Part shown: in pieces, positions 18,576 through 34,991 of the stretch
Layout of the letters: every line of letters starts with the position of its first letter
Numbering within the stretch: position 1 is the stretch's first letter
Assembly (NCBI GenBank): GCA_963931165.1
Contig: OZ006985.1
Location: 975,900-1,039,899 of the forward strand
Origin: an uncultured Christensenellaceae bacterium
GTDB lineage: Bacteria; Bacillota; Clostridia; Christensenellales; UBA3700
Direction: 5' to 3'
Length of the DNA stretch: 64,000 bases
The notes under the pieces: model-generated
What the model was told of the DNA's origin: nothing
The model's database searches: none
Seen by the model: only the letters and a program-made list of their open reading frames with translations
Program-made: the position numbers and the translations under genes

Positions 18576-19436
18576 ATGGACAGAGCAAGCGACAGGTTCG
18601 CACTGGCGGACGGCAACTTCATCCCGTGTCTCGGCTTCGGGACCTACTTGATCGACGACCCGATTGTCGCCTATCGCAGCGTGGCGGACGCGCTCGAGCT
18701 GGGCTATCGCCACATCGACACCGCGGCGATCTACCGCAACGAAGAGAGCGTCGGCAAGGCGGTCAGGGACAGCGGTTTGGCGCGCGGCGACATCTTCGTC
18801 ACGTCAAAGGTGTGGGCGAGCGAACACGGCTATGACCGCGCCTCCCGCGCGATAGACGCGTCGCTCAAACGCCTCGGTTTGGACTATATGGACATGTGCC
18901 TCATCCATTGGCCCGCCAACGCCAAGAATTACAGCGATTGGCAGGCGGTCAACGCCGACACCTGGCGCGCGCTCGAACAGGCGAAGGCGGACGGCAAGGT
19001 CAAGACGATCGGCGTCAGCAACTTCCTCGTGTCCCACCTTGCCAGCTTGCAGGACAATTGCCGCATCATGCCCGCGGTCGATCAGATCGAGTATCACCCC
19101 GGACTGCTTCAGCCCGAGACGGTCGCGTTTTGCAAGAGCAACAACATCTTGGTCGAGGCGTGGAGCCCGATCGGCAGAGCGAGGCTCTTGGACGACCCGA
19201 CGCTCAACTCGATCGCGCACAAGCACGGTAAGTCGGTCGCGCAAGTGTGCGTCAAGTTCGCGCTGTCGCAAGGGGTGCTGCCTCTGCCCAAGAGCACGCA
19301 CAGAGCGCGCATGGCGGAGAACGCCGACATCTTCGACTTCGAGCTGGATTGGTCGGACATCGGCGACATCGAGGGGATGGAAGAGGGCAAGCGATACGGC
19401 TCTCATCCCGACGAACAGGATTTTTGCGCAGAGTGA
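18576..19436 (+). CDS. Aldo/keto reductase (2,5-diketo-D-gluconate reductase-like)
   Basis: LGFGTY..., GYRHIDTAAIYRNE and IGVSNF motifs; SD GGGAGG. Confidence 0.85.
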   Translation: MDRASDRFALADGNFIPCLGFGTYLIDDPIVAYRSVADALELGYRHIDTAAIYRNEESVGKAVRDSGLARGDIFVTSKVWASEHGYDRASRAIDASLKRLGLDYMDMCLIHWPANAKNYSDWQAVNADTWRALEQAKADGKVKTIGVSNFLVSHLASLQDNCRIMPAVDQIEYHPGLLQPETVAFCKSNNILVEAWSPIGRARLLDDPTLNSIAHKHGKSVAQVCVKFALSQGVLPLPKSTHRARMAENADIFDFELDWSDIGDIEGMEEGKRYGSHPDEQDFCAE

Positions 19437-29449: not shown

Positions 29450-31495
29450 ATGAAAGACGACAAAATGCGCGACGACGCGCCGCGCTCGGGCAGAGCGCAA
29501 GCCGTCAAGGCGGCGATCGCCGACGACGTGACAGGCTTTGTCTTGCTGTGCGTAGACGCGGTGTTTTCGCTTGTGCTTCTCGCGAGCGGTTTCAACTTTT
29601 TGGCGCTTCCGGCGCTGGTGCTTGCGCTTGTCGACGCGCTCGCGATGTTCGTGCGCGCGCTCAAGGGGCGCGATATAGGCGTCTTTTTGTTTGCGGCGTT
29701 CTTTGCCGTCTATGCAAGCATATTTTTGTACTTTCTCATATGGGGCGCGGACAGCTTCGGCAGACGGCTGTGGTGGAACCTCGTGCTGTGCTTTTTCCCG
29801 GTCGCGCTGACCGCATCGATCCTTGTCGTAAAGAAGTTTTCGGCGGAACGCATTGCGAAATTTTTCGTGCCCGTGTTGATAATACTCGTGTTTGCGACAT
29901 CGCTCGTCTATGCGATGTTCATGAGTTTGCGCGCGCGTCCGACCGTCGAGAGGATGTGGGACGGGCATGACGCCTATCTCGATTCCGTCTCCGCCCGCCG
30001 CAAGGGCTCGCCCAACGTGCTCGTGATATTGATGGACGATATGGCGTATGCCGACATCTCGGCGTACAGCTACAAGTATGCCGAACAGCCGTCGACGATC
30101 GACACCCCCAACATCGATTCCATTGCCGAAAACGGCGTGATGATGGACAACTTCTACGCGGCGTCGCCTGTGTGTTCGCCGTCGCGGTTTTCCATGCTGA
30201 CGGGCAGATACTCGTCGCGCGGCTATCTCGACAACGTCGTCTTCCCGACCGTCGTTGACAGCGATCCGTGGTCGCCGACGCACTTTTTCGGTCCCTATCA
30301 ATTCTTGAACAACGTCGACGGCATCTTGGGAGATGAGATCACGTTTGCCGAGGTGTTGCAGGCGTCGGGTTACGACACCTATCTGATCGGCAAGTGGAAC
30401 CTCGGCGACTACGGCGAATATCTTCCGACAGAGCAGGGCTTCGACTACTTTTACGGCAGCTATTACGTCAACGATATGACCCCCTACAATTGGGTGCGCG
30501 ACACGGGAGAGGGCTATCCCGGCGGCGCGTCGCACGAAGAGGTGAGGACGCATGCCGAAAATCTCGATCAATCGATGTCGACGGGGATGTTCACCGACGA
30601 GTTGCTGTCCTCGATCGAGGGTTCGGTCAAAAGCGGCAACGCGTTTTGCACCGTCTACGCGACGCCGTGGCCGCACTATCCGATATTCTCGAACAACAAC
30701 GGCAACGGGCAGGGCGACACGTCCGACGACAGCTATATCGATTGCATCGAGGAGTTCGACCGCGAGCTGGGCAGGGTGCTCGACTATCTGCGCGCGACGC
30801 CCGACGAGGTCAACGACGGTACGCTGTATGACAACACGGTCGTCATCTTCACGTCGGACAACGGACCGGGGCGCGAGGGCGCGGCGGGCGCGCTGCGCGG
30901 GCGCAAGAATACGACTTTCGAAGGCGGGATGAAAGTGCCCCTTCTCGTCAGCTATCCGGCAGGCGGCATCGGCGGCAACGCCGAGTTGCAGAGCACGCTC
31001 GATGTCACCTATTCGGACGGCACGGAAAGACGGTTGACTACGACGCGCGTGCAGTCTTCGTCGATGATGTTCGACCTGTTCACGACGATCTTGTCGCTTT
31101 GCGGAGTGACGGACGGGGAGGGCGATGTCATGCTGCCGACCGACCGCGTGATCGACGGCGTCGACATGTCGGCGCTGTGGAGAGGCGAGCTCGATCCCGA
31201 CGCGCCGATGCACGAGGCGCTCTACTATCAAAAGAAGGGCAAGGTGCAGGCGGTGCAGCTGATAGGCGTGGAGCTGGACGGGCAGAGGTACGACTTCAAG
31301 TACTTCGACCGCGTTCAGTCCGAAAATTCCGCGTTCTTCGATCAATACTACAACAACTACCTGTTCAACCTCGACCTCGATCCGATCGAGGGCTACAACA
31401 TCTCGATGAAATATCCCGATATCGCGGCTCGGCTTGCCGACGCGCTCGACGCCTTCCGCGCCGAAATGCGAACAAATCGCAGAGGGATAAAGTAG
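29450..31495 (+). CDS. Membrane-anchored Cys-type sulfatase (about 5 N-terminal TM helices + formylglycine-dependent sulfatase domain)
   Basis: N-terminal 170 aa is hydrophobic. The sulfatase domain has VLVILMDDM and the FGly signature SPVCSPSRFSMLTGRY (C-x-P-x-R). Confidence 0.85.
   Translation: MKDDKMRDDAPRSGRAQAVKAAIADDVTGFVLLCVDAVFSLVLLASGFNFLALPALVLALVDALAMFVRALKGRDIGVFLFAAFFAVYASIFLYFLIWGADSFGRRLWWNLVLCFFPVALTASILVVKKFSAERIAKFFVPVLIILVFATSLVYAMFMSLRARPTVERMWDGHDAYLDSVSARRKGSPNVLVILMDDMAYADISAYSYKYAEQPSTIDTPNIDSIAENGVMMDNFYAASPVCSPSRFSMLTGRYSSRGYLDNVVFPTVVDSDPWSPTHFFGPYQFLNNVDGILGDEITFAEVLQASGYDTYLIGKWNLGDYGEYLPTEQGFDYFYGSYYVNDMTPYNWVRDTGEGYPGGASHEEVRTHAENLDQSMSTGMFTDELLSSIEGSVKSGNAFCTVYATPWPHYPIFSNNNGNGQGDTSDDSYIDCIEEFDRELGRVLDYLRATPDEVNDGTLYDNTVVIFTSDNGPGREGAAGALRGRKNTTFEGGMKVPLLVSYPAGGIGGNAELQSTLDVTYSDGTERRLTTTRVQSSSMMFDLFTTILSLCGVTDGEGDVMLPTDRVIDGVDMSALWRGELDPDAPMHEALYYQKKGKVQAVQLIGVELDGQRYDFKYFDRVQSENSAFFDQYYNNYLFNLDLDPIEGYNISMKYPDIAARLADALDAFRAEMRTNRRGIK
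29860..29876 (-). repeat. Copy D of the recurrent motif (ACACGGGCACGAAAAAT on the minus strand)
   Basis: Plus strand reads ATTTTTCGTGCCCGTGT inside the sulfatase TM region. This is an exact 17-mer match to the copy at 32602-32618. Confidence 0.6.
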
Positions 31496-31518
31496 TTCGG
31501 CGCGCAAGGAGACATGAT

Positions 31519-32595
31519 TTGAGAGCGGTTTCGGTGATGTTCAAACCTTCGTCGTCGCTGTGCAACATGCGATGCGAATATTGTTTTTACCACTCGCTGT
31601 CGGCTTTGCGCGAGCTGCCTTTTCGCGGCATGATGAGCGAGCGGACGCTGAGCGCCGCCCTCGGTAAGATCTTCGACTATGCGGACGGCGGACCCGTCTC
31701 GCTGTCGTTTCAGGGCGGAGAGCCGCTGTTGTCGGGCAAAGACTTCTTTCGCGCGGCGGCGCGGCTGATCGCCGAACTCAACGTCAAGCGTTCGCCGGTG
31801 TCCGTCGGAGTGCAGACCAATGGTACATTGATAGACGACGAGTGGTGCGACATATTCTCGGAGAACAAGTGGCTCGTCGGACTGTCGCTGGACGGCGATG
31901 AAAAGGCGAACGCCTACCGCGTGGACAGGGACGGCGCGCCGACTTTTGACAAAGCTTATGCGGCGGCAAAGCTGTTGCAGGAGCGCGGCGTCGACTTCAA
32001 TATATTGTGCGTGCTCACGCGTCCCGTCGCCGAAAATATCGAGCGAATTTATGATTTTTACAGGCGTAATCGCTTCCGCTTTCTGCAATTCATCCCCGTG
32101 CTCAAACCGCTCAAAGGCGGCGTAGAAGACGACGGCATGTATTTGACCGGCGAAATTTACGGCAAGTATTTGCGCAAGCTGTTCGACCTCTATATGCGCG
32201 ATATGATGAGGGGAGAATACACCTCGATCAGGCAGATGGACAACTTTGTCGCTCTCGCCAACTTCCGCCGCGCCGAACAGTGCGGTATGACGGGCGGTTG
32301 CGCGCGCCAATTTGTGATCGAGGGGGACGGCGCGGTCTACCCGTGCGACTTCTATTGTCTCGACGAGTATTGCCTCGGCAACATCAACGACTCTAGCCTC
32401 GATCGGCTCGCCGCTCACCCCGTCGCCGTGCGCTTTGTCGAGGAGTCGCGCAACTATCCCGACAAGTGCAAACGCTGCCGCTGGTTTTGCATGTGCATGG
32501 GCGGCTGCAAGCGAGAGCGTATCGATCTGGACAAGTGCGCCGCCTATGACGAATTCTTCGCCTACGCAGTGCCGCATATGCGCAGAATGAGCTGA
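31519..32595 (+). CDS. Anaerobic sulfatase-maturating enzyme (radical SAM, SPASM domain)
   Basis: TTG 31519 lies 6 nt after AAGGAGA; ATG 31537 is the alternative start. CNMRCEYCFY radical-SAM motif plus C-terminal Cys clusters (CxxxxxCxxxC, CKRCRWFCMCMGGC). Sits directly downstream of the sulfatase. Confidence 0.85.
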   Translation: MRAVSVMFKPSSSLCNMRCEYCFYHSLSALRELPFRGMMSERTLSAALGKIFDYADGGPVSLSFQGGEPLLSGKDFFRAAARLIAELNVKRSPVSVGVQTNGTLIDDEWCDIFSENKWLVGLSLDGDEKANAYRVDRDGAPTFDKAYAAAKLLQERGVDFNILCVLTRPVAENIERIYDFYRRNRFRFLQFIPVLKPLKGGVEDDGMYLTGEIYGKYLRKLFDLYMRDMMRGEYTSIRQMDNFVALANFRRAEQCGMTGGCARQFVIEGDGAVYPCDFYCLDEYCLGNINDSSLDRLAAHPVAVRFVEESRNYPDKCKRCRWFCMCMGGCKRERIDLDKCAAYDEFFAYAVPHMRRMS

Positions 32596-32672: not shown

Positions 32673-33878
32673 TCAGGCGATGCTTTGCGCGAGCATTGCG
32701 CCGAGTTCGAACGCCTTGGCGAGTTCCGCTTCGCTCGGGACGAAGCACGCTTTGAGTCCTTCGCCGACGACGTTGAGCTTGAGTGCGGTCAGGCGCGCGA
32801 CGAGCGCAGGCACCGCTTCGCCGCTCCAGCCGTAGGAGCCGAACACCGCGACCGGGCGCTTCTTGATGTTGATCGCGTCGATCGAGGCGATCAAATTCCA
32901 CACCGGCGGCACCGCGTCGGCGTTGAGCGTCGGCGAGCCGATCGCAAAGGCGTTGCTGCCGTTGAGTTCGGCGGCGAGCGTCGCGAGGTCGAAGTCGATG
33001 ATGTTGTAGGTCTTGCATTCCGCCGAAGGCAGCACGGAAAGCACGCCGTCGCGTATCTTTGCGGCGAGTGCGGCGGTGCAGCCGTACGCCGAGCAATAAA
33101 ACACCGGCACGCGCTTGACCGCGCTCTTGACGGGGGCGCTCCACTCGTGGTATTTTTGGATCGCATAGTCGAGTTGACCCGCCTTGGTCAGCACGGGGCC
33201 GTGGCTGTTGCAGACATACTTGATGTCGAGCGCGGAGATCTTTGCAAGTCCTGCGAGCACAAACGGCTTGAACGGACCGAAGATCGCGTCGTAGTAGTCC
33301 TTGAACGCGCTGCGATAGTCGTCGAGGTTGCGCACCTTGGCGTCGAACATCGGAGCGAACGAGTAGTGCGCGCCGAGGAAATCGCACGGGAAGAGGGTCT
33401 TCTCTTCGGGGCAATAGGTCATCATCGTGTCGGGCCAATGCAGCAGCGGCGCGACGATGAATTTGAGCGTGAGTCCGCCGAGGTCGAGCGTTTCGCCCTC
33501 CTTGACGACGCGCACGTTGAGGTCGGCGCGGTTGGTGATGTTTTTGAGATAGTTCGCCGCGACCGCGGTGCAGACGATCTGCGCGTTCGGGCACACGCCG
33601 AGCAGAGCGGCGAGTGCGCCCGAGTGGTCGGGCTCGGTGTGGTTGACGACGATGTAGTCAATGCTTGCGGGGTCGGCGACCTCGGCGATGTTCGCCTTGT
33701 ACTCGTCAAAGAATTCCGCATGGCTCGTCTCGACGAGAGCGGTCTTTGTCGCGCCCTTGACGAGGAAAGAGTTGTAACTTGTACCGAAACGAGTCGGCAT
33801 CACGATGTCGAAGATCTCGAGGTCGGGATTTTGAACTCCGACGCTGAACACGTTGTCTGTGATCTTGATGGCAGCCAT
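32673..33878 (-). CDS. Flavodiiron protein (FprA-type O2/NO reductase: metallo-beta-lactamase-like + flavodoxin domains)
   Basis: ATG 33878 behind GGAGGG. HTEPDHSG di-iron motif and a C-terminal flavodoxin-like domain. Confidence 0.9.
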   Translation of the reverse strand: MAAIKITDNVFSVGVQNPDLEIFDIVMPTRFGTSYNSFLVKGATKTALVETSHAEFFDEYKANIAEVADPASIDYIVVNHTEPDHSGALAALLGVCPNAQIVCTAVAANYLKNITNRADLNVRVVKEGETLDLGGLTLKFIVAPLLHWPDTMMTYCPEEKTLFPCDFLGAHYSFAPMFDAKVRNLDDYRSAFKDYYDAIFGPFKPFVLAGLAKISALDIKYVCNSHGPVLTKAGQLDYAIQKYHEWSAPVKSAVKRVPVFYCSAYGCTAALAAKIRDGVLSVLPSAECKTYNIIDFDLATLAAELNGSNAFAIGSPTLNADAVPPVWNLIASIDAINIKKRPVAVFGSYGWSGEAVPALVARLTALKLNVVGEGLKACFVPSEAELAKAFELGAMLAQSIA

Positions 33879-33905: not shown

Positions 33906-33933
33906 ATTATAACACAAAAATGCCGCCGTGCAA
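33906..33933 (-). promoter_or_regulatory. Promoter of the flavodiiron gene (TTGCAC-N16-TGtTATAAT)
   Basis: On the minus strand: -35 at 33933-33928 and extended -10 ending at 33906. It partly overlaps the upstream terminator stem. Confidence 0.5.
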
Positions 33934-33950
33934 AACGTTTGCACGGCGGC
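33914..33950 (-). terminator. Rho-independent terminator of the small glycyl-radical-motif gene
   Basis: 13-bp stem GCCGCCGTGCAAA/TTTGCACGGCGGC followed on the minus strand by ATTTTTGT. Confidence 0.75.
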
Positions 33951-33962
33951 AATCCGATTGAA

Positions 33963-34229
33963 TCAAACTCCGTGCTTTACGCGGTCTCTCTCTTCGGCGC
34001 GCTTGGCGTCGTTGAAGCGGTCGAGGGTGCCGACGAGATAGCCGGTGATGCGGCGGATGCGCTCAAACGGCTGGGGCGAGAATTGGTACTTGAGGTCGAC
34101 AAAGTCGCCGTCCAAGGTCACATCCATCGCGATGATGCTCTTGCCGGGGTACTTCTTGCGGCCGTATGCGATATAGGCGTCGATCTCCTTTTGATCGATT
34201 GTCCCGTTTTGAACTGTTACGTCAATCAT
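33963..34229 (-). CDS. 88-aa stand-alone protein carrying an NrdD-type (class III ribonucleotide reductase) C-terminal glycyl-radical motif
   Basis: ATG 34229 lies 7 nt after GGAGG, and the gene has its own terminator. The C-terminus FERIRRITGYLVGTLDRFNDAKRAEERDRVKHGV parallels the NrdD end (RRTCGYLG...FNxGKxxE...RVKH as I recall it). Confidence 0.65.
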   Translation of the reverse strand: MIDVTVQNGTIDQKEIDAYIAYGRKKYPGKSIIAMDVTLDGDFVDLKYQFSPQPFERIRRITGYLVGTLDRFNDAKRAEERDRVKHGV

Positions 34230-34308
34230 GATGTTACCTCCCGAAAGCGCGTTCAAACGCTTTACTTATTTGCAAAACTAATATATCATATTATTGACGC
34301 AGGTATCT

Positions 34309-34322
34309 GTTGCAAATGCAAC
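34309..34322. promoter_or_regulatory. 14-bp palindrome GTTGC-N4-GCAAC (Crp/Fnr-type 5-4-5 architecture) in the divergent intergenic region
   Basis: Perfect inverted repeat, 16 nt upstream of the crp/fnr ATG. It is centred about 42 nt upstream of a predicted minus-strand start downstream of the TATATT -10 box at 34285-34280. Confidence 0.4.
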
Positions 34323-34337
34323 AAAACGGAGAAAAAA

Positions 34338-34991
34338 ATGGATTTTTCGCAAATCGAGTTGTTTGACGGCATAAGCGCGGCGTCGTGTACGGACATGCTG
34401 GTGTGTTTCGGCGCGGAGTTCGATTCGTTCCGCACCGGCGAGGTCGTGTGCGACTATTCGGACGACCCCAAGCGGCGCGTGGGGATCATGCGCACGGGCA
34501 GGGCGTCGATGATCCGCATAGACGAGAGCGGCAACGAGACGCTGCTCGAAGAGGTCGAGGAGGGCGATATATTCGGCGAGGTGCTGTGTTTCGGCGACGG
34601 CGGCGACTATGTCAAACTCATATGCGACGAAGACTGCGACGTTGTCTTTCTCAAATACGATCAGATCACCAAGCGGTGCGAAAAGGCGTGCGAGCACCAC
34701 AGCCGCCTCGTCGCCAATCTGTTCGAGCTGATGGCAAAAAAGACGCTGTCGCTCGGCGAGAGGATACAATTGCTGTCGAGGCGCACGACGCGAGAGAAGC
34801 TGATGTACTATTTCCGTCTCGAGAGCGCGCGCAGGGGCGGCGAGTTCACGCTGCCGATGTCGCACACGCGGCTCGCCGAGTATCTGTGCGTCGACCGCAG
34901 TGCGATGGTCAGGGAATTGAAGCGGCTGACGGACGACGGCTTGGTGCGCGTCGACGGCAAGAAGATAAGGTTGACGCAAGCGGAATTTTGA
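34338..34991 (+). CDS. Crp/Fnr family transcriptional regulator
   Basis: ATG 34338. cNMP-binding-like beta-roll (GDIFGE) and C-terminal HTH (HTRLAEYLCVDRSAMVRELKRL). Cys pairs CDEDC and CEKAC lie between the domains. Confidence 0.85.
   Translation: MDFSQIELFDGISAASCTDMLVCFGAEFDSFRTGEVVCDYSDDPKRRVGIMRTGRASMIRIDESGNETLLEEVEEGDIFGEVLCFGDGGDYVKLICDEDCDVVFLKYDQITKRCEKACEHHSRLVANLFELMAKKTLSLGERIQLLSRRTTREKLMYYFRLESARRGGEFTLPMSHTRLAEYLCVDRSAMVRELKRLTDDGLVRVDGKKIRLTQAEF

What the first reader, a model, noticed from the sequence alone, without database searches (positions are those of the whole stretch)
33963..34229. Stand-alone 88-aa protein with the NrdD glycyl-radical motif: a possible spare-part radical domain for class III RNR
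This is a well-signalled monocistronic gene. It has GGAGG 7 nt upstream of its ATG, its own 13-bp-stem terminator and its own intergenic promoter region. Its last ~32 residues (FERIRRITGYLVGTLDRFNDAKRAEERDRVKHGV) closely follow the extreme C-terminus of anaerobic ribonucleotide reductase NrdD as I remember it (…IRRTCGYLG…FNxGKxxE…RVKH), where the Gly of GYL carries the radical.

The catalytic barrel, the ATP-cone and the Zn-ribbon cysteines are all absent. There is no nrdD-like sequence on either side, so it does not look like a gene fragment. The only analogous system I know is GrcA/YfiD, which replaces the oxygen-cleaved glycyl-radical domain of pyruvate formate-lyase. I am not aware of a described equivalent for NrdD.

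The neighbourhood fits an oxygen-damage role: a flavodiiron O2/NO reductase lies immediately downstream and a divergent Crp/Fnr regulator immediately upstream.
Basis: partly seen in the sequence, partly recalled or inferred. Interest (0 to 1): 0.7.

Follow-up and report, generated by a model that had tools for sequence, protein, structure and literature searches.

The report
Stand-alone radical domain for anaerobic RNR
This 88-residue protein carries only the radical-bearing tail of the anaerobic ribonucleotide reductase NrdD and belongs to a large undescribed family tied to that enzyme, most likely an extra, replaceable radical part of a kind so far known only for pyruvate formate-lyase.

Summary
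Window 33963-34229 (minus strand) is a monocistronic gene for an 88-aa protein. Only its last ~34 residues match NrdD, and they match its extreme C-terminal glycyl-radical segment.

It is not a remnant. At least 582 species genomes and at least 576 viral contigs encode the same 87-97-aa protein, with an invariant FxRIRRITGYLVGT...DRVKH block.

Three lines tie it to class III RNR:
- It lies between nrdD and nrdG in one bacterial MAG and in 14 distinct phage contigs.
- 35 of 80 species have a correctly spaced pair of NrdR boxes upstream, about 370-fold over background.
- Its radical block tracks that of the co-resident NrdD through many synonymous changes.

The family occurs in two settings. In the phage operons NrdD lacks the radical segment, so the small protein is the only carrier. 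In Ruminococcus the small gene lies 150 kb from an intact nrdD-nrdG on the same contig, so it is an extra copy.

The window gene is of the second type. A divergent Crp/Fnr regulator and a conserved palindrome at about -41.5 control it, and it sits beside a flavodiiron gene.

The spare-part reading is the best-supported one but is unproven. I could not reach this organism's own nrdD. I found no prior description.

The parts
33963..34229 (-). CDS of the 88-aa stand-alone glycyl-radical-domain protein
   Evidence: ORF and translation. The exact protein is P0001 of Candidatus Ornithoclostridium faecigallinarum, seen on 779 contigs. Family alignments start at this ATG, not at the upstream TTG at 34256.
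34074..34229 (-). N-terminal domain (residues 1-52), family-specific beta-alpha-beta-beta fold
   Evidence: AF2 pLDDT 80-87; strand 3-7, helix 13-26, strands 32-40 and 43-50. No significant fold match in the PDB. phmmer of residues 1-53 against 1.84 billion representatives gives 77 hits, nearly all 40-120-aa proteins and none of NrdD length or architecture. It does not align to NrdD.
33972..34067 (-). Glycyl-radical block (residues 55-86, FERIRRITGYLVGTLDRFNDAKRAEERDRVKH); predicted radical Gly63 at 34041-34043
   Evidence: Pfam, NCBIfam and PDB matches to the NrdD C-terminus. Invariant or nearly invariant across 81 species. tblastn of a Firmicute NrdD hits only here, 87.5% identity over 32 aa. 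Low pLDDT (~50) when modelled alone.
34237..34241 (-). Ribosome-binding site GGAGG, 7 nt before the ATG
   Evidence: Read directly from the sequence.
33911..33951 (-). Intrinsic terminator of the small gene (14-bp stem, 3-nt loop, T-run)
   Evidence: -30.6 kcal/mol, z = -5.1.
34308..34323 (.). Perfect palindrome TGTTGCAAATGCAACA (TGTTG-N6-CAACA), predicted binding site of the divergent Crp/Fnr regulator
   Evidence: Only perfect copy in the window, chance expectation 0.22. The same palindrome occurs in every lineage that has the divergent Crp gene and in none with NrdR boxes.
34280..34288 (-). Predicted extended -10 (TG-n-TATATT) of the small gene; places the palindrome centre at about -41.5
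   Evidence: Conserved spacing from palindrome to TATGATA(C/T)A(A/T)T in 8 of 8 loci and in L001-L006, L009 and L010. No transcription start was measured.
34338..34991 (+). Divergent Crp/Fnr-family regulator (217 aa) with conserved Cys23, Cys113, Cys117 and His120
   Evidence: Pfam cNMP_binding + HTH_Crp_2. 39% identical to the orthologue beside the small gene in a Ruminococcus-type locus. Conserved RC-x3-C-x2-H motif in the alignment. No specific NCBIfam family.
32673..33878 (-). Flavodiiron protein (FprA type, 401 aa) immediately downstream, with its own promoter
   Evidence: Pfam Lactamase_B + ODP + Flavodoxin_1. Resembles flavorubredoxin below the cut-off. Promoter-like site at 33934..33906. 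Rubrerythrin takes this position in the Ruminococcus lineages.

Best explanation
The gene encodes a free-standing glycyl-radical domain for the anaerobic (class III) ribonucleotide reductase.

Proposed mechanism:
1. The activase NrdG recognises the RRITGYLVGT loop, which is the same in NrdD, and abstracts a hydrogen from Gly63.
2. The radical loop then inserts in trans into the barrel of NrdD next to the catalytic cysteine, and the C-terminal helix lies on the NrdD surface.
3. The small folded N-terminal domain takes the place of the Zn ribbon that tethers the loop in NrdD.

In this organism the protein is most likely an extra copy of the radical domain. It would serve an NrdD whose own domain has been lost, for example by oxygen cleavage at the radical glycine. 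This is the role GrcA/YfiD plays for pyruvate formate-lyase.

Expression is predicted to depend on the divergently encoded Crp/Fnr-type regulator binding TGTTGCA-N2-TGCAACA at about -41.5.

What is shown:
- homology of the radical block;
- family conservation;
- operon and NrdR-regulon links to RNR;
- coexistence with intact NrdD in relatives;
- phage operons in which an NrdD with no radical segment is paired with this family, so that trans action there follows if those enzymes are active.

What is inferred: activation by NrdG, docking, the repair role and the regulator's signal.
For: 1. The radical block is homologous to the NrdD C-terminus only and is invariant in 81 species.

2. In MAG locus L036 the order is nrdD-small gene-nrdG-nrdR, with NrdG and NrdR above the NCBIfam cut-offs. 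That NrdD is complete. The two radical blocks are 32/32 identical in protein, with 9 synonymous and 0 non-synonymous differences.

3. Pairs of NrdR boxes at the canonical 31-32-bp start-to-start spacing lie upstream of the small gene in 35 of 80 species. Background is 7 pairs in 1.18 Mb. The site definition comes from PMC13584703. A perfect box precedes nrdD in L036.

4. On contig JAFRXL010000043.1 the small gene (with Crp, palindrome and rubrerythrin) lies at ~44 kb, and an intact 772-aa nrdD plus nrdG at ~197 kb. Their radical blocks are 30/34 identical, with 17 synonymous against 4 non-synonymous codon differences. R. flavefaciens ATCC 19208 shows the same by matching scaffold length. All 120 closest Ruminococcus NrdDs are intact.

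5. In that genome nrdD carries NrdR boxes while the small gene carries the Crp palindrome, so the two are regulated differently.

6. In all 14 distinct phage contigs with the operon (13 in the first viral scan, one more in the second), NrdD stops after the Zn ribbon and the small protein is the only carrier of the motif. If those enzymes are active, the domain works in trans.

7. The NrdD radical domain is a mobile rigid body that leaves the barrel (PMC11226230). The block is disordered when modelled alone.

8. The Crp-small gene-rubrerythrin/flavodiiron module and its promoter geometry are conserved between Christensenellaceae and Ruminococcus.
Against: - No experiment exists.
- nrdD and nrdG of this organism were not found in the window and could not be reached elsewhere, so an NrdD without its radical domain is not excluded here.
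- Outside L036, every operon with the small gene or a mini version beside nrdD has an NrdD lacking the domain. The family clearly can be an obligate subunit.
- Neighbourhoods are mostly unconserved. Rubrerythrin follows in 7 of 74 loci and Crp precedes in 6 of 75 by Pfam.
- The signal sensed by the regulator is unknown. An Fnr-like oxygen-labile activator would switch the gene off in air, not on.
- No docking model could be computed.
Confidence: 0.6

Rival explanations
1. Obligate radical subunit of a split enzyme. In this organism NrdD lacks its own glycyl-radical segment and the 88-aa protein is the only radical carrier, as in the phage operons. The gene has simply moved away from nrdD.
For: In 14 of 14 distinct phage contigs with the operon, NrdD ends after the Zn ribbon and the same family supplies the motif. 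A separate 46-67-aa mini family does the same in three bacterial lineages. NrdR co-regulation fits a true subunit. The cognate NrdD of the window organism is unseen.
Against: The split-operon proteins form one clade with a D[KR]WN signature. The window protein and L036 lie outside it. Genomes with the same Crp-palindrome module have an intact NrdD on the same contig. 79 of 80 bacterial loci have no nrdD within 10 kb of the small gene, which is unusual for an obligate subunit. A Christensenellales NrdD fragment has an intact domain ending ...RAEERDRVKHGV, like the window protein.
Confidence: 0.15
2. Regulator or decoy. The protein mimics the NrdD radical loop in order to bind NrdG or the NrdD barrel, and so titrates or tunes RNR activation. 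It might, for example, hold a radical in reserve or block activation under stress, without supporting catalysis.
For: Its loop is identical to the NrdG substrate. It belongs to the NrdR regulon. It is regulated separately from nrdDG in Ruminococcus. GrcA is itself reported to act on full-length PflB, to judge from the title of a cited paper (Kammel and Sawers 2022, listed).
Against: In phage split enzymes the family must be catalytically competent, because no other radical glycine is encoded in the operon. The whole 32-residue block is invariant, including the C-terminal helix that packs on NrdD. That is more than a decoy for NrdG would need.
Confidence: 0.12
3. Non-functional remnant of a disrupted nrdD, or a chance ORF.
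For: The homology covers only the last 34 residues of NrdD.
Against: There is no nrdD-like sequence on either flank. The gene has its own RBS, terminator and promoter elements. At least 582 species and at least 576 viral contigs keep the same length and domain order. The N-domain is conserved and confidently folded. Synonymous differences far outnumber non-synonymous ones against the co-resident NrdD.
Confidence: 0.01
4. Radical donor for an enzyme other than NrdD, for example another glycyl radical enzyme or a neighbouring gene product.
For: Neighbourhoods vary. A radical SAM/SPASM gene lies 1.3 kb away in the window. SAM synthetase follows the small gene in 4 of 74 loci.
Against: The neighbouring radical SAM enzyme is paired with a sulfatase, the arrangement typical of a sulfatase maturase. 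The block matches NrdD and not the PFL-type Gly_radical family. NrdR boxes and nrdD-nrdG operons point specifically to RNR.
Confidence: 0.03

Closest known systems
GrcA/YfiD, the autonomous glycyl radical cofactor of E. coli (spare part for pyruvate formate-lyase)
   Same: A small stand-alone protein whose C-terminal part copies the radical domain of a large glycyl radical enzyme encoded elsewhere in the same genome. It is presumed to be activated by that enzyme's activase and to replace the oxygen-cleaved domain (PMC13450708 and PMC8683613).
   Different: No detectable sequence relationship: no Pfam Gly_radical or GrcA hit. It derives from NrdD, not PFL. Its N-terminal part is a folded domain and the radical block is the flexible part, whereas in YfiD the N-terminus is disordered and the C-terminus structured. 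Most members are under NrdR control. No biochemistry exists.
Bacteriophage T4 Y06I (phage-encoded YfiD homologue)
   Same: A phage-borne copy of a stand-alone radical domain. Here at least 576 IMG/VR stretches encode the family, and some copies lie alone between tail and lysis genes of a prophage-like contig.
   Different: Y06I serves PFL. In 14 phage contigs the protein here is part of an nrdD-nrdG operon whose NrdD lacks the domain.
C-terminal glycyl radical domain of NrdD (Pfam PF13597, last ~60 residues; P. copri NrdD residues 676-739)
   Same: The Gly loop and C-terminal helix are homologous and nearly identical to those of the co-resident NrdD.
   Different: It lacks the Zn(Cys)4 ribbon, and indeed any Cys, as well as the catalytic barrel and ATP-cone. 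An unrelated beta-alpha-beta-beta domain precedes the loop.
Split class II RNR NrdJa/NrdJb of Pseudomonas aeruginosa, and class I RNR with its separate radical subunit
   Same: An RNR built from two polypeptides. In class I the radical is generated on a separate subunit (PMC9669993).
   Different: A class III enzyme with the glycyl radical on a separate polypeptide was not found in the literature searched. The window gene is unlinked to nrdD and probably redundant with it.

Membership tests
GrcA/YfiD autonomous glycyl radical cofactor (Pfam PF01228 Gly_radical) | Sequence homology to the PFL-type glycyl radical domain | tested here: not met
   hmmscan against Pfam at E up to 10 returns only NRDD and a spurious hit. 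NCBIfam returns only NrdD models.
GrcA/YfiD autonomous glycyl radical cofactor (Pfam PF01228 Gly_radical) | Small stand-alone protein duplicating the radical loop of a large glycyl radical enzyme that is itself complete in the same genome | tested here: inconclusive
   Met in relatives: same contig in Ruminococcus sp. RGIG2886, same operon in L036. The window organism's own NrdD was not retrievable.
GrcA/YfiD autonomous glycyl radical cofactor (Pfam PF01228 Gly_radical) | Radical installed by the parent enzyme's activase; restores activity to the oxygen-cleaved enzyme | not testable with these tools
   Needs EPR and activity assays.
NrdD, class III RNR catalytic subunit (PF13597, TIGR02487) | Ten-stranded alpha/beta barrel with the catalytic cysteine loop | tested here: not met
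   Only profile positions 532-562 of 562 match. NCBIfam scores of 30-46 bits fall far below cut-offs of 326-764.
NrdD, class III RNR catalytic subunit (PF13597, TIGR02487) | C-terminal radical glycine in an RxxGY motif followed by the ...RVKH helix | tested here: met
   RRITGYLVGT...DRVKH aligns to 8p23 residues 707-738 and is invariant in the family.
NrdD, class III RNR catalytic subunit (PF13597, TIGR02487) | Zn(Cys)4 ribbon directly before the glycine loop | tested here: not met
   The protein contains no cysteine. Residues 1-52 do not align to NrdD.
NrdR regulon | Two 16-bp NrdR boxes (C4, A6, A8, T9, T11, G13) separated by 15-16 bp in the promoter | tested here: not met
   There is none within 200 nt upstream in the window or in its own species. 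The feature is met in 35 of 80 other species.
Radical subunit of a split class III RNR (type defined here from phage operons) | Adjacent nrdD that ends after the Zn ribbon, plus membership of the D[KR]WN clade | tested here: not met
   No nrdD in the 64 kb. The window protein has DRFN and falls outside the split clade.
Class II Crp/Fnr-activated promoter | Regulator palindrome centred near -41.5 and no good -35 element | tested here: inconclusive
   The geometry fits in all palindrome-bearing loci checked, and no sigma-70 -35/-10 pair was found for the gene. No transcription start or binding data exist.

The most novel reading that the evidence does not exclude
Gut Clostridia and their phages carry an independently evolved spare-part system for the anaerobic ribonucleotide reductase. 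A free glycyl-radical domain protein is charged by NrdG and plugs into NrdD in trans. In bacteria it acts as a replaceable extra copy; in phages it is the sole radical subunit of a two-piece class III RNR. This would be the first spare part for any glycyl radical enzyme other than pyruvate formate-lyase, and the first class III RNR with the radical on a separate polypeptide.
Probability: 0.55. Interest if true: 0.85.

Novelty: new variant of a known kind. Interest (0 to 1): 0.8.

Why it matters
Reviews of glycyl radical enzymes state that spare-part proteins are known only for formate lyases, and that it is undetermined whether others exist (PMC13450708, June 2026; PMC8683613). This family is a concrete, widespread candidate for the enzyme that makes DNA precursors in strict anaerobes.

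It comes with natural controls. Phage enzymes that appear to depend on the trans arrangement sit alongside bacterial genomes where it is redundant. The question is therefore directly testable with NrdG, SAM and EPR.

It would explain how gut anaerobes with only a class III RNR recover DNA synthesis after transient oxygen exposure without resynthesising a 770-residue enzyme. It also adds a new member to the NrdR regulon.

About 90-aa proteins currently labelled 'anaerobic ribonucleoside-triphosphate reductase' or 'hypothetical' could then be annotated correctly.

Tried and rejected
- **Looking for nrdD/nrdG in the window.** tblastn with E. coli and Firmicute queries found nothing.
- **Fishing the organism's own NrdD with a Zn-ribbon + radical-block peptide.** With the 50-aa chimera, contig-end fragments and mini proteins filled the top 120. 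The Christensenellales NrdG route was judged too unlikely to reach the right species and was not run.
- **Second viral scan with the L036 protein.** It gave no further 'intact NrdD + small gene' operon.
- **77-85-aa 'MKESGIGYG...Zn ribbon...' proteins (P0238 type).** I considered these a third family. The P0238 places examined were contig-end fragments plus one frameshifted nrdD, and the others start at the same internal Met, so I rejected the idea.
- **Second palindrome match at 19128.** It lies inside an aldo-keto-reductase-like coding region and is a chance match.
- **My regular expression was wrong.** The printed tails, not the count, show that all 120 NrdDs are intact.
- **Literature searches for small, truncated or split NrdD.** Nothing relevant was returned. 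Subscription-only papers are not covered.

Full report
**1. The observation**

- GGAGG lies 7 nt before the ATG.
- A 14-bp-stem terminator with a T-run follows the stop (z = -5.1).
- The downstream flavodiiron gene has its own TTTGCA-17-TGnTATAAT promoter overlapping that terminator. The small gene is therefore monocistronic.

Pfam NRDD matches above its gathering score (30.8 against 26.2 bits, E = 1.7e-7), but only residues 54-86, against the last 31 positions of the 562-position profile. NCBIfam NrdD models and the solved Prevotella copri NrdD (8p23, residues 707-738) match the same stretch. A profile comparison with a complete NrdD aligns residues 51-88 and nothing else.

The protein has no cysteine, hence no Zn ribbon. 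tblastn with E. coli and Firmicute NrdD and NrdG finds no other nrdD- or nrdG-like sequence in the 64 kb. The divergent Crp/Fnr gene and the flavodiiron gene are as described.

**2. It is a family, not a remnant**

The exact protein belongs to Candidatus Ornithoclostridium faecigallinarum (Christensenellaceae) and was seen on 779 contigs.
- The protein search was saturated by 87-97-aa relatives, all unnamed or mislabelled as the reductase itself.
- At least 582 species-representative genomes and at least 576 IMG/VR stretches encode it.

Across 81 species the block F-x-R-I-R-R-I-T-G-Y-L-V-G-T-x-D-R-F-N-x-A-K-x-A-E-x-x-D-R-V-K-H is invariant or nearly so. The N-terminal 52 residues are moderately conserved (E15, Y19, D40, G41, V44, Y48).

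AlphaFold2 folds residues 1-52 confidently (pLDDT 80-87) as beta-alpha-beta-beta and leaves the radical block at pLDDT ~50. The fold has no significant PDB match. A full-library phmmer with residues 1-53 finds only 77 clusters, nearly all short proteins, with none of NrdD length or architecture. Pfam, NCBIfam and PHROGs hold no dedicated model.

**3. Link to class III RNR**

*(a) Operons.* In the bacterial MAG locus L036 the order is nrdD (779 aa, complete), small gene (94 aa), nrdG, nrdR. NrdG and NrdR pass their NCBIfam cut-offs. A perfect NrdR box lies 52 nt before nrdD. The two radical blocks are 32/32 identical in protein but differ at 9 of 96 bases, all synonymous.

*(b) Regulon.* The published NrdR site is two 16-bp boxes with conserved C4, A6, A8, T9, T11 and G13, separated by 15-16 bp or 26-27 bp (PMC13584703).
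- By this definition, 35 of 80 species have a box pair in the 200 nt upstream of the small gene.
- The spacing histogram peaks at 31 bp (22 loci) and 32 bp (12 loci).
- The rest of the 1.18 Mb of locus DNA holds 7 such pairs. That is roughly a 370-fold enrichment.

*(c) Co-variation.* Lineage-specific residues of the block (positions 56, 74, 75) follow those of the co-resident NrdD.

**4. Two settings for the family**

*Sole carrier in phages.* In the first viral scan, 13 of 80 contigs carry nrdD-small gene-nrdG. In all 13 the NrdD ORF stops after the Zn ribbon (for example ...CPCCGRTEHITITEKVRRIK*) and has no R-x-x-G-Y motif. The small gene follows with a TAATG overlap or after inserted phage genes. 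The second scan added one further contig of this kind (L200) and re-found one. There the small protein is the only radical carrier, so these are split class III enzymes. These proteins form one clade with a D[KR]WN signature.

*Extra copy in bacteria.* The last protein search, seeded with a Ruminococcus-type NrdD, returned 120 NrdDs of 747-817 aa (most 772-779), all with an intact radical domain.
- P0329 lies on NCBI contig JAFRXL010000043.1 at ~197 kb, followed by nrdG. This is the same 210,659-bp contig that carries the small gene at ~44 kb, with its divergent Crp gene, palindrome and rubrerythrin (L019).
- P0352 has a longest contig of 495,395 bp. That is the length of the R. flavefaciens ATCC 19208 scaffold holding the small gene (L035).
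- The NrdD and small-protein blocks are 30/34 and 32/34 identical, with 17 and 15 synonymous against 4 and 2 non-synonymous codon differences. The second pair uses nrdD DNA from another sample that encodes the identical protein. The divergence is old and the peptide is held under strong constraint.
- In that genome nrdD has NrdR boxes, while the small gene has the Crp palindrome.

The window protein and L036 lie outside the split clade.

**5. The window's own regulatory type**

The palindrome TGTTGCAAATGCAACA (34308-34323) is the only perfect copy in the window. The same TGTTGCA-N2-TGCAACA occurs in every lineage with the divergent Crp gene:
- the window species;
- two related lineages;
- seven Ruminococcus-type loci.

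It occurs in no locus with an NrdR pair.

A conserved TG-n-TA(C/T)A(A/T)T element follows at a fixed distance. This puts the palindrome centre at -40.5 or -41.5, the geometry of class II Crp/Fnr activation. No transcription start was measured. The site also lies 15 nt before the regulator's own ATG.

The regulators are orthologous (39% identity between window and L009). They share Cys23, an R-C-x3-C-x2-H motif and His120, which suggests a metal or cluster sensor. This is inference.

Downstream, the window lineage has a flavodiiron gene and the Ruminococcus lineages have rubrerythrin. An oxygen-related context therefore recurs across two orders. It covers only about a tenth of the species sampled.

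**6. Mechanism**

The best-supported reading is a trans-acting radical domain. NrdG charges Gly63, and the loop enters the NrdD barrel.

Feasibility rests on two points. If the phage split enzymes are active, the domain must work in trans there. And cryo-EM and HDX data show that the NrdD radical domain is a mobile rigid body that leaves the barrel (PMC11226230).

The window-type gene coexists with intact NrdD in the relatives that share its module and is regulated apart from nrdDG. An extra, conditionally expressed copy, analogous to GrcA, is therefore more likely than an obligate subunit. Oxygen-dependent cleavage of NrdD at the radical glycine is established knowledge that I did not re-verify in a paper here.

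**7. Comparison with what is known, and novelty**

- A survey of RNR insertions and extensions places the radical domain at the C-terminus of class III enzymes, and my term search of it turned up no class III enzyme with that domain on a separate polypeptide (PMC9669993).
- Searches for small, truncated or split NrdD found nothing.

The protein fails the sequence test for GrcA membership but matches the concept. I rate it a new variant of a known kind.

**8. Limits**

No experiment exists. This organism's nrdD and nrdG were not seen. The regulator's signal and direction of control are unknown. No docking model was obtained. The literature search covers open-access papers and bioRxiv only.

Noticed in passing
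L095 2648-5733; L097 2-1329; L099 1629-4649 (also L096, L098, L100): A second, distinct family of 46-67-aa mini proteins: Met, a variable leader, then GxGVGFERIRRITGYLVGTLDRFNDAKRAEERDRVKHG. At least 25 clusters exist at 90% identity. In three lineages the mini gene lies between nrdD and nrdG. The NrdD in each ends after the Zn ribbon with a conserved alternative tail and no radical motif, so these are bacterial split class III RNRs.
   Followed up: partly
L128, L132, L134, L138, L139, L140, L144, L148, L150, L151, L152, L168, L171, L195, L200: IMG/VR contigs with nrdD (no radical segment)-small gene-nrdG. L195 is the same contig as L168, so these loci represent 14 distinct contigs. Some NrdD tails end ...VRRIK*, which looks like a relic of FERIRRIT. 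L144 has an endolysin-like gene inserted between nrdD and the small gene.
   Followed up: partly
L161 5959-6234 (similar: L142, L149, L156-L166, L169): A group of ~47-55-kb low-GC viral contigs carries the small gene alone. In L161 it sits between tail genes and holin/endolysin with an anti-repressor nearby, the usual moron position of temperate phages. No nrdD or nrdG lies within 6 kb. This suggests a phage-supplied radical domain for the host NrdD.
   Followed up: partly
L092 2926-5237: An nrdD with a frameshift about 50 nt before the MKESGIGYG segment. Gene callers therefore report a 692-aa and a 78-aa product. The 77-85-aa 'Zn ribbon + radical block' entries examined (P0238) are contig-end fragments or this frameshift, and the similar entries start at the same internal Met, so they are not treated as a family.
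   Followed up: yes
window 34338-34991 and orthologues in L005, L009, L013, L017, L031, L035, L041: The divergent Crp/Fnr regulators share Cys23, an R-C-x3-C-x2-H motif (residues 112-120) and no specific NCBIfam family. They may form an uncharacterised metal- or cluster-based sensor subfamily that binds TGTTGCA-N2-TGCAACA.
   Followed up: partly
Immediately downstream of the small gene in 4 of 74 species loci (alignment A2): S-adenosylmethionine synthetase follows the small gene in 4 loci. This could relate to the SAM demand of NrdG or could be chance.
   Followed up: no
P0191 (236 aa): One relative carries an extra ~130-residue N-terminal extension in front of the complete small-protein sequence. 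Other long 'relatives' (P0044, P0121, P0142, P0148, P0180) look like frameshifts or chimeric assemblies.
   Followed up: no
window 29450-32595 (+): A sulfatase (681 aa) is followed by a radical SAM/SPASM enzyme (352 aa), the arrangement typical of an anaerobic sulfatase maturase. The pair lies just beyond the flavodiiron gene and is unrelated to the finding.
   Followed up: no
L005 10709-14267: In the closest sister lineage (small protein 75% identical), a type II-A CRISPR-Cas locus (Cas9, Cas1, Cas2, Csn2) replaces the sulfatase/maturase genes downstream of the flavodiiron gene.
   Followed up: no
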